Virus record (IMG/VR): IMGVR_UViG_3300035208_002804
Span: 32,001 to 96,000 of that record
DNA from: a virus
Taxonomy: Duplodnaviria > Caudoviricetes
DNA length: 64,000 nucleotides
Reading direction: 5' to 3' (one strand)
A model generated the notes under the pieces. The model ran no database searches, was not told the origin of the DNA, and saw only the letters and a list, made by a program, of their open reading frames with translations. Shown here piece after piece: positions 56,184 to 56,877 of the stretch. The position numbers and the translations under genes are program-made. The first letter of the stretch is position 1; the number at the start of each line of letters is the position of its first letter.

Positions 56184-56342
56184 TATATAAGAGAAAGAGA
56201 TTTACGGTATTTAAATAAACAATAAGAAGAAGAGAAAAGAGAGAAAGTTACTAAATTATTATAAAGTATAATACAAACTATAAAATAGAGAAAGAAGAGG
56301 AAGAAAGGAAATATATGGAATCAATAACTGCTAACCAAAAGG

Positions 56343-56480
56343 TTTAAATACTCGTAATGTTATAAAGTAAAGTGCATCCCAAGAACAAGTTAAAATGAAA
56401 GGAAGACAGATTGACCACCTGTTTTCTTTTCTTCTTTTTTCTTGTTAGGCAGGTTGTTTCGTGCTATTTTCGTGGTCTGT
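56343..56480 (+). ncRNA. Dispersed promoter/small-RNA-like element, copy E
   Basis: TTTAAATA at 56343, AGTGC with G at 56372, purine arm, T-tract, TTGTTAG...GTGGTCTG. Confidence 0.5.
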
Positions 56481-56734
56481 TTTGCGATTTAACTGTTTTA
56501 CATCGGCTTTTAATTGGATGGCTATATTAGGCAGGACCGGAATCACAATTGTGAATTATGAAGTGATGAAAATAGTTAAGTGTTATTAAATTGTAGAAAA
56601 GTGTTACTTGCTAATAGTATCCGGTAGATGGGAATTTAACCCATATATGTTCAATGTCACCGGTTCTTTAGCGTTGTCATGACACCGAACGGGTTTTCTA
56701 CTAACTGCTTAATTACTACCGGTCAACAACCACA

Positions 56735-56826
56735 CATGCTAAAACTCATAACAAAGAAAAGAAAAAGAAGAGGATCCTTTCTCTGCTACTTGTTGCACTA
56801 TATAGTTGTTGGTAATAGTATTTATA
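56735..56826 (-). ncRNA. Dispersed promoter/small-RNA-like element, copy F
   Basis: TATAAATA at 56826, AGTGC with G at 56798, GAAAGGATCCTCT, T-tract, TTGTTATGAGTTTTAGCATGTGTGG. Confidence 0.55.
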
Positions 56827-56877
56827 GTTAACTATGGAGATGAGAATTTCATCTATTTCTCTCTATCTCTCTCATTT

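What the first reader, a model, noticed from the sequence alone, without database searches (positions are those of the whole stretch)
56190..56870. Two element copies (E and F) face each other across an ORF-free gap between the tail chaperone and tape measure genes
Seen: chaperone and TMP genes, normally adjacent, are separated by about 690 bp with no credible ORF. Copy E (+, G at 56372) and copy F (-, G at 56798) are convergent, 426 nt apart. Inference: two convergent primer-forming promoters are the layout expected of a bidirectional replication origin; a sense/antisense RNA pair is the alternative.
Basis: partly seen in the sequence, partly recalled or inferred. Interest (0 to 1): 0.7.

Follow-up and report, generated by a model that had tools for sequence, protein, structure and literature searches.

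The report
Convergent hairpin-RNA mini-genes in tail module
The gene-free gap between the tail chaperone and tape measure genes of this uncultivated, probably archaeal, tailed virus holds two inward-facing mini-genes for short hairpin RNAs, members of a family of about eleven per genome that is in no RNA database; nothing specific marks the gap as a replication origin.

Summary
A 694-bp gap (56184-56877) has no conserved ORF. It holds two convergent copies of one element, starting at G 56372 (+) and G 56798 (-), 426 nt apart.

Each copy has an archaeal-type TATA box at about -30 to -23 and a GTGC start. A purine-arm/pyrimidine-arm hairpin follows, closed by a conserved UGUUAUGAG base, then U runs. 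The virus (136 kb) has 11 such cassettes and its 127-kb relative has 11. The E/F pair sits at the same place in three viruses, with its F side also seen at the end of a fourth contig.

The fold is specific to the transcribed strand: it is more stable than the antisense fold in 19 of 19 copies. Copy orientation is unrelated to neighbouring genes. F also carries a 103-nt tRNA-shaped module that cannot decode.

The origin reading is weak:
- There is no A+T-rich unwinding stretch.
- The local GC-skew step is unremarkable (12th-18th percentile) and tracks C-ending codon bias in the tail genes.
- A stronger origin candidate, seven iterons near a local cumulative-skew minimum, lies 32 kb away.

R-loop priming is not excluded, because the family as a whole sits at skew upshifts in this genome.

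The scan had already noted this family in other windows of the same genome.

The parts
56343..56350 (+). TATA box of copy E (TTTAAATA), first base 29 nt before the start G
56372..56449 (+). Copy E transcribed core. GUGC start; hairpin 56384-56446 with purine 5' arm, apical loop AUUGACCAC and pyrimidine 3' arm with a U6 run; base AACAAG/CUUGUU followed by AGG.
   Evidence: MFE -21.8 kcal/mol, z -3.4 against dinucleotide shuffles; z -2.8 against shuffles of the 5' arm only. Orthologues in G001 and L162 keep a loop motif ending in CCA.
56450..56615 (+). Possible 3' body of the E RNA, extent not known. It has several U4 runs and ends in the conserved block GTGTTA-N16-GTGTTAC (56580-56611).
   Evidence: No significant fold (z 0.05). 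The block is 81% identical over 32 nt to the relative. GUGUUAC also occurs downstream of other copies in G001. The block is absent from L162.
56620..56722 (-). tRNA-shaped module downstream of the F hairpin: 7-bp acceptor stem CCGGUAG/CUACCGG, T arm AUGGG-UUAAAUU-CCCAU, short D-like hairpin, and a 12-bp arm in place of the anticodon arm.
   Evidence: Rfam tRNA 26.9 bits (gathering score 29), E 0.001-0.003 for the local search. Cloverleaf-like MFE -31.5 kcal/mol, z -3.85. No single deletion gives a canonical anticodon arm. ARAGORN does not call it. Absent from G001 and from IMG/VR.
56736..56798 (-). Copy F transcribed core. GUGC start at 56798; hairpin UAGCAGAGAAAGGAU...CUUUGUUA; conserved GUUAUGAGUUUU; the 5' GUGC can pair with GCAU at 56736-56739.
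   Evidence: MFE -20.9 kcal/mol, z -3.87; the opposite strand folds at only -7.1, z 0.16. z -3.6 against 5'-arm shuffles. 63-nt repeat with copy D at 32143-32205.
56819..56826 (-). TATA box of copy F (TATAAATA on the minus strand)
56184..56216 (-). The TMP gene's own promoter: TTTAAATA 24 nt before the ATG at 56183, implying a leaderless or near-leaderless mRNA
   Evidence: (I5); the same geometry is seen at many first genes of operons
56218..56311 (-). Two 24-25-nt pyrimidine tracts on the minus strand between E's promoter and the TMP promoter
   Evidence: function not tested
56878..57153 (-). +1-frame extension of the chaperone gene (gpT-like), which bounds the gap on the right
   Evidence: conserved in L001, L159 and L162

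Best explanation
E and F are two autonomous mini transcription units of a virus-specific family, with 11 copies in this genome and 11 in its relative. The host's archaeal-type RNA polymerase would start at the G of GTGC, about 26 nt downstream of the centre of a TATA box. It would transcribe a 45-110-nt RNA whose purine-rich 5' arm folds back on a longer pyrimidine-rich 3' arm. The stem closes at a conserved (A)UAACA / UGUUAUGAG base, and runs of U follow, which are the archaeal termination signal. The products would be short hairpin RNAs; F additionally carries a tRNA-shaped, non-decoding module. The two units face each other and together fill the gap, so the gap is two small RNA genes rather than empty DNA or an origin. 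Shown here: promoter geometry, strand-specific hairpin, family size, synteny, and lack of coding. Inferred: that they are transcribed, where the RNAs end, and what they do. My best guess is a shared protein-binding scaffold (hairpin plus a GAGUUUU, Sm-site-like tail). Because the copies point inward in pairs, their T-rich arms could also stop transcription from entering the bracketed segment.
For: Promoter: the TATA box begins at -29 to -31 in 13 of 19 copies by a strict regex; the rest have near-consensus boxes at that place or, in one copy, further upstream. The pattern is enriched 25-fold over shuffles. The same box sits 22-28 nt before the ATG of many first genes, alongside GGAGGTGA/GGTGAT ribosome sites inside operons. 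Hairpin: all 20 copies tested fold to a stem closing at GUUAU. Mean z is -3.0 against shuffles of the 5' arm alone. The sense fold is more stable than the antisense fold in 19 of 19 (mean -17.4 against -8.2 kcal/mol), and 65 of 359 pairs are G-U. Autonomy: only about 10 of 22 copies have a co-oriented gene downstream, and those genes have their own TATA box. Conservation: the F-like/E-like pair follows the chaperone-T gene in G001 (270 nt apart), in L162 (349 nt apart) and at the end of L159. Chaperone identity is 61-67%, and the sequence between the pair is otherwise diverged. No ORF is conserved. No Rfam family reaches threshold.
Against: There are no expression data, so promoters and 3' ends are predictions. 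An archaeal host is inferred from promoter geometry and leaderless genes, supported by a terminase resembling clusters that carry the MJ0330_N domain. It is not proven: the virus RtcB is closest to Firmicutes proteins, and no pseudomurein endoisopeptidase was found. Any purine arm pairs fairly well with any pyrimidine arm, so covariation is mostly one-sided. The pyrimidine arm is about twice as long as pairing needs. The cassettes as a family coincide with upshifts of GC skew in this genome, which a pure small-RNA reading does not explain.
Confidence: 0.55

Rival explanations
1. R-loop origins. Each cassette's purine-rich 5' transcript stays hybridised to the pyrimidine template strand and primes leading-strand synthesis in its own direction, so the convergent pair E/F acts as a small bidirectional origin.
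For: Purine-rich RNA on a pyrimidine DNA template is hybrid-prone (general knowledge). Cassettes coincide with GC-skew upshifts: G000 mean step +0.17 to +0.19, 9 of 10 positive, p about 1e-4 to 6e-4 against random positions. At same-strand gene boundaries the mean is +0.144 (n=15), against 0.00 for other boundaries and -0.076 for ordinary TATA promoters. Copies alternate +/- as inward-facing pairs: 9 of 10 neighbour changes in G001 and 7 of 10 in G000. One pair brackets the iteron region. The relative encodes an RNase H domain. Phage T4 oriF/oriG work this way (PMC3016281).
Against: There is no A+T-rich unwinding element: the first 80 nt after the start average 39% G+C against 32.7% for the genome, and the E-F interval is 36.8%. 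T4 origins require such an element. The skew signal is weak in G001 (p 0.03-0.14). At E/F it is unremarkable (12th-18th percentile) and is explained by C-ending codon bias. Selection for a strand-specific hairpin that sequesters the purine arm is not expected of a simple R-loop primer. Eleven origins in 136 kb would be unusual, and a classical iteron origin candidate exists.
Confidence: 0.2
2. Transcription punctuation. The hairpin plus T runs are terminators or attenuators that close the tail-tube operon (F) and block antisense entry (E). The promoters serve mainly to restart or time transcription of downstream genes such as the TMP gene, perhaps under an antiterminator.
For: Every copy has a run of at least five T in the 3' arm. 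F lies directly after the last gene of the tail-tube operon and upstream of the TMP gene. About half the copies precede a co-oriented gene. Inward-facing pairs would insulate the bracketed DNA from both sides.
Against: E and about half of all copies have no co-oriented gene downstream. Downstream genes have their own TATA box right before the ATG. A terminator needs neither its own conserved promoter and GTGC start nor the invariant GUUAUGAG.
Confidence: 0.15
3. The gap is a decayed gene or mobile-element remnant with no present function.
For: A tRNA-shaped module that cannot decode lies in the gap. It is missing from the relative, so it looks like an insertion.
Against: There is no protein-level conservation. 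Both cassettes are conserved in place in three diverged viruses. The gap is filled by elements with strong, strand-specific folds.
Confidence: 0.05

Closest known systems
Small virus-encoded structured RNAs with their own promoters and oligo-U ends (adenovirus VA RNAs, Epstein-Barr EBERs; from general knowledge)
   Same: Short, separately promoted units ending in U runs that fold into a long imperfect hairpin with paired 5' and 3' ends. They are non-coding and sit between protein genes.
   Different: Those have one or two copies per genome, are made by Pol III in animal cells, and bind known partners (PKR, La). Here there are about 11 diverged copies in a prokaryotic tailed virus, arms segregated into purines and pyrimidines, and no sequence relation (Rfam negative).
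Phage T4 R-loop origins oriF and oriG (PMC3016281)
   Same: A promoter whose transcript could prime one-directional leading-strand synthesis, with several such sites per genome.
   Different: T4 needs an A+T-rich unwinding element downstream of the promoter, which is absent here. T4 origins have no conserved RNA hairpin.
Lambda pR'-tR' 6S transcript and HK022 put RNAs (promoter-proximal structured leader followed by a terminator; from general knowledge)
   Same: A strong promoter immediately followed by a structured RNA and a termination signal, giving a short transcript unless termination is overridden.
   Different: Those lie upstream of the operons they control. Half of these cassettes point at no gene. 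Antitermination of this type is, to my knowledge, not described in archaea.
tRNA-like modules in viral RNAs (for the F module only)
   Same: Acceptor stem plus T arm in a cloverleaf-like four-way junction, and unable to decode.
   Different: Sub-threshold for Rfam tRNA (26.9 against 29 bits). The T loop reads UUAAAUU (A at position 56), the D loop lacks GG, and a 12-bp arm replaces the anticodon arm.

Membership tests
Archaeal (TBP/TFB-type) promoter | A/T-rich TATA box centred about 26-27 nt upstream of the start site | tested here: met
   The box begins at -29 to -31 in 13 of 19 copies by a strict regex; the rest have near-consensus boxes at that place or, in one copy, further upstream. E: TTTAAATA-N21-G. 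F: TATAAATA-N20-G.
Archaeal (TBP/TFB-type) promoter | Transcription actually starts there in an archaeal host | not testable with these tools
   No transcript data, and the host is not identified.
T4-type R-loop replication origin | Promoter directing a transcript into the origin | tested here: met
T4-type R-loop replication origin | A+T-rich DNA unwinding element just downstream of the promoter (PMC3016281) | tested here: not met
   First 80 nt after the start: E 36%, F 40% G+C, family mean 39% against 32.7% genome-wide. The lowest 50-nt window between E and F is 22% G+C, and 76% of random segments go as low or lower.
T4-type R-loop replication origin | Persistent RNA-DNA hybrid used as a primer; strand-composition switch at the site | tested here: inconclusive
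   Hybrid formation is not testable. The skew step at E/F lies at the 12th-18th percentile and is confounded by codon bias. The family-wide upshift is significant in G000 and weak in G001.
Iteron-type origin | Clustered repeated initiator-binding sites conserved among relatives | tested here: not met
   Only a GTAACAC direct repeat (2 copies here, 3-4 in G001, 0 in L162). Real iteron arrays lie at genome 120241-120878 (G000) and 52.4-53.1 kb (G001).
tRNA (Rfam RF00005), for the F module | Score at or above the gathering threshold and a 5-bp anticodon stem with a 7-nt loop (U33, purine 37), if need be after removal of one intron | tested here: not met
   26.9 bits against 29. No single deletion restores an anticodon arm. 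Not called by ARAGORN with or without introns.
Any Rfam RNA family, for the E and F hairpins | Match at the gathering score | tested here: not met
   only chance-level hits (miRNA precursors, ctRNA)

The most novel reading that the evidence does not exclude
The cassettes are a new kind of replication or genome-organisation signal of archaeal tailed viruses. Inward-facing pairs of promoter-hairpin units would have purine-rich transcripts that form R-loops and prime leading strands in opposite directions. The genome would then be copied from about five or six paired start zones, of which E/F, inside the tail module, is the tightest. Transcript-primed multi-origin replication has, to my knowledge, not been shown for any archaeal virus.
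Probability: 0.15. Interest if true: 0.85.

Novelty: new variant of a known kind. Interest (0 to 1): 0.55.

Why it matters
Little is known about non-coding RNAs of archaeal tailed viruses; a full-text search for such RNAs in methanogen viruses found no paper on the subject. Here a single virus lineage carries about eleven separately promoted, structurally conserved hairpin-RNA units. One pair is fixed between two genes that are normally adjacent in tailed viruses. If transcribed, they are a new RNA family with a clear, testable architecture: promoter, start site, hairpin and an invariant GUUAUGAG(U)n tail. If they prime replication instead, they would be a new origin type. Either way they give a ready-made set of strong archaeal promoter and terminator modules. 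They also show that the gap in the tail module is not an annotation failure.

Tried and rejected
1. Conserved small ORF starting at the AUG of GUUAUGAG. Reading frames run from 3 to more than 70 codons and four copies lack the AUG, so this was rejected.
2. A link between the central GTAACAC block and the G000 iterons (CTAAT-N3-AACGTAACA). G001 has 3-4 GTAACAC in its gap, but its own origin-like region has quite different 200-bp repeats, and L162 lacks the block. The link was rejected as coincidence.
3. The F module as an intron-containing tRNA. No single-intron removal gives an anticodon arm, and the long arm has no bulge-helix-bulge.
4. tRNA-like domains in the other copies. None was found by a pattern scan. 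An Rfam scan of 18 cassette loci was uninformative because its filters also lost the known F hit.
5. Homology of the regions downstream of the hairpins. Only the anchor and short patches are shared.
6. An RNAalifold consensus on a MAFFT alignment captured only 10 pairs because of register slips. I therefore did not build a covariance model and used per-copy folds with arm shuffles instead.
7. Host identification. There was no DNA match to phage records, the terminase gave only 22-25% matches to bacterial phages, RtcB was nearest to Firmicutes, and pseudomurein endoisopeptidase and PMBR were absent, with the control genomes silent too.
8. Wider relatives. IMG/VR and metagenome pattern scans gave only G001 and one 5-kb contig (L118) carrying an orthologue of the 118-kb copy; the other hits were chance.

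Full report
**Setting.** The window is bases 32001-96000 of a 136,274-bp virus record, with 32.7% G+C for the whole record. Around the finding all genes lie on the minus strand. The 2294-aa tape measure gene is 49299..56183. A 165-aa chaperone is 57122..57619, with a 91-codon extension in the +1 frame at 56878..57153. Two Phage_tube_2 genes lie upstream. Between the end of the extension and the TMP start lie 694 bp (56184-56877).

- The longest stop-to-stop frame in the gap has 63 codons.
- None of the 33 frames of 15 codons or more is conserved in the relative's gap, apart from fragments of 13 residues or fewer that lie on conserved nucleotide blocks.
- Copy E is TTTAAATA-N21-GTGC with its G at 56372 (+). 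Copy F is TATAAATA-N20-GTGC with its G at 56798 (-). The distance is 426 nt.
- TTTAAATA-N20/21-GTGY occurs four times in the window against 0.16 expected, and no shuffle out of 100 reaches four.

**What the copies are.** Whole-genome scans found 11 cassettes in this virus, with starts at genome 12413+, 16144-, 34083-, 47332+, 60408+, 64200-, 88372+ (E), 88798- (F), 105802+, 118457+ and 121993-. The only sizeable relative is IMGVR_UViG_3300027419_000024 (G001), 127 kb, with terminal overlap and chaperone 67% identical. It also has 11. The reversed-pattern control gave zero hits.

All copies share one plan:
- A TATA box begins at -29 to -31. The strict regex finds it in 13 of 19 copies; the others have near-consensus boxes at that place or, in one copy, further upstream.
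- The start is G-U-G/A-C.
- A purine-rich arm comes next, then a loop or insert of variable size, then a longer pyrimidine-rich arm that always contains a run of five or more T.
- The near-invariant words UUGUUAUGAG (variants UUGUUAGG, UUGCAG) and a U run follow.

The same TATA box sits 22-28 nt before the ATG of many first genes of operons, including the TMP gene itself. Internal genes have GGAGGTGA or GGTGAT ribosome sites. TATA-box spacing plus leaderless first genes is the archaeal pattern. The terminase resembles clusters carrying the MJ0330_N domain. The host was not identified otherwise: RtcB is closest to rumen and gut Firmicutes, phage records give nothing close, and no pseudomurein endoisopeptidase was found.

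**The hairpin is real and strand-specific.**
- E (56372-56449) folds at -21.8 kcal/mol, z -3.4.
- F (56736-56798) folds at -20.9 kcal/mol, z -3.9. Its complement reaches only -7.1, z 0.16.
- Across the 20 copies tested, the minimum-energy fold always closes the stem at GUUAU.
- Shuffling only the 5' arm keeps the purine/pyrimidine contrast but still gives a mean z of -3.0.
- The sense strand folds better than the antisense strand in 19 of 19 (mean -17.4 against -8.2 kcal/mol).
- 18% of pairs are G-U.

This fits a structure in the RNA, or in single-stranded DNA of that polarity, and not a DNA cruciform. In F and several others the 5' GUGC can pair with GCAU just after the U run, closing the molecule.

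**The units are autonomous.** Only about 10 of 22 copies have a co-oriented gene downstream, and where there is one it has its own TATA box at the ATG. E points at the 3' end of the chaperone gene and has no gene to serve. Sequence downstream of the anchor is not homologous among copies. No Rfam family reaches threshold.

**Synteny.**
- In G001 the gap is 455 bp. It holds an F-like copy right after the chaperone extension and an E-like copy facing it, with starts 270 nt apart.
- Two further relatives came from homologues of the chaperone (61-64% identity).
- L162 has the same pair 349 nt apart, with an E-like 5' end, GUUGCAUCCCAAUAAC against GUGCAUCCCAAGAAC here.
- L159 ends inside an F-like promoter directly after the extension.
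- Between the two copies only a 32-nt block (56580-56611; GTGTTA-N16-GTGTTAC on the E strand) is shared with G001. It is missing in L162.

So the conserved items are the two cassettes and their inward orientation, not the DNA between them.

**A tRNA-shaped module in F.** A permissive Rfam scan of the gap gave tRNA at 56620-56722 (-), 26.9 bits against a gathering score of 29.
- It has a perfect 7-bp acceptor stem, a T arm with loop UUAAAUU and a short D-like hairpin.
- It has 50 nt where the 17-nt anticodon arm should be.
- The free fold is a four-way junction at -31.5 kcal/mol, z -3.85.
- No single deletion restores an anticodon arm, and ARAGORN does not call it.
- It is absent from G001 and IMG/VR, and it accounts for most of the extra length of this gap.

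With it, F (56798 down to 56620) and E (56372 up to about 56615, if E runs to the conserved block) would abut and fill the interval. These ends are inferred.

**Testing the origin idea.**
1. *Global skew.* Cumulative GC skew peaks at genome 112 kb, and cumulative AT skew bottoms at 120.2 kb. Seven 19-bp iterons (CTAAT-N3-AACGTAACA, direct and inverted) lie at 120241-120878, in a 1.3-kb divergent intergenic region. The equivalent region of G001 (skew minima at 50-53 kb) has four 200-bp repeats. That is the classical origin candidate.
2. *Local skew at E/F.* The step over ±3 kb is +0.14 to +0.20, the 12th-18th percentile of random positions. It arises because the six tail genes to the right use C-ending pyrimidine codons: C3/(C3+T3) is 0.42 against 0.225 genome-wide. 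G3/(G3+A3) is unchanged at 0.22. That pattern fits translational selection on highly expressed structural genes at least as well as a mutational strand bias.
3. *No unwinding element.* The E-F interval is 36.8% G+C (G001 38.7%, L162 37.4%). The first 80 nt after the starts average 39%. The most A+T-rich 50-nt window is ordinary. T4 oriF and oriG require an A+T-rich unwinding element (PMC3016281).
4. *In favour of the origin idea.* Over the family, cassettes coincide with GC-skew upshifts in this genome: mean +0.17 to +0.19, 9 of 10 positive, p about 1e-4 to 6e-4. The effect is only weak in G001 (p 0.03-0.14). At same-strand gene boundaries the mean is +0.144 (n=15), against 0.00 for other boundaries and -0.076 for ordinary promoter boundaries. 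Orientations alternate as inward-facing pairs (9 of 10 neighbour changes in G001, 7 of 10 here), and one pair brackets the iteron region. G001 encodes an RNase H domain, and no Prim-Pol was found.

These points keep transcript priming alive as a rival at about 0.2, but none is specific to E/F. The two genomes are also syntenic, so they are not independent samples.

**Verdict.** The gap is best read as a convergent pair of small hairpin-RNA genes, one with a tRNA-shaped appendix, from an undescribed family of an uncultivated, probably archaeal, tailed-virus lineage. The claim that the pair is a bidirectional origin is not supported by anything specific to this site, and it fails the one sequence feature that defines the best-known model. 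It can only be settled by transcript and replication-intermediate mapping. The scan had already noted the same family in other windows of this genome. One earlier follow-up favoured R-loop origins. My tests reproduce its skew association for this genome but find it weak in the relative and confounded at E/F.

Noticed in passing
window 56878-57153 (-) overlapping 57122-57160: The chaperone gene continues in the +1 frame, not the usual -1. The frame opens only after a TAA a few codons before the chaperone stop, within ...UAC UUU CGU CUC CUA UAA. The extension is conserved in L001, L159 and L162.
   Followed up: partly
genome 120241-120878 (L010 8241-8878), outside the window: Seven 19-bp iterons CTAAT-N3-AACGTAACA, direct and inverted, with 213-bp periodicity. 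They lie in a 1.3-kb divergent intergenic region at the cumulative AT-skew minimum. This is the best replication-origin candidate of this virus. G001 has four different 200-bp repeats at the equivalent place (L112 12410-13105).
   Followed up: partly
genome 106-120 kb, outside the window: Third-position GC skew of about +0.6 (106-110 kb) flips to about -0.6 (113.8-120.1 kb) whatever the gene strand. The flip occurs across a 3-kb gene-poor stretch with CT-rich repeats near 112 kb.
   Followed up: partly
genome 12327-13428 (L007), outside the window: A 1.1-kb non-coding stretch opens with a further cassette (start at 12413, +). It has a second promoter at about 12672. It also holds a tRNA-Met(CAU)-like gene with a 15-nt insertion at position 37/38 (13007-13094, ARAGORN with introns), which Rfam's tRNA model does not detect.
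   Followed up: partly
window 16000-19251 (+) and L008 11779-15264 (+): Both the anaerobic ribonucleotide reductase NrdD and the family B DNA polymerase carry inteins with LAGLIDADG endonuclease domains. The virus also encodes an RtcB RNA ligase (window 13696-14889) whose nearest relatives are from gut and rumen Firmicutes (about 50-54% identity).
   Followed up: partly
window 56546-56563: A perfect 12-nt palindrome TCACAATTGTGA lies near the middle of the E-F interval. It is not conserved in the relatives.
   Followed up: no
window 57122-61817 (-): Six tail-module genes use C-ending pyrimidine codons about twice as often as the genome average: C3/(C3+T3) is 0.29-0.50 against 0.225. This suggests strong translational selection.
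   Followed up: partly
L162 1890-2110: In the third relative the E-like promoter region (TTTTTAATAGTATATAAACTTT...) is duplicated about 180 nt further on. Its gap therefore holds more than two promoter-like units and exceeds 780 nt.
   Followed up: no
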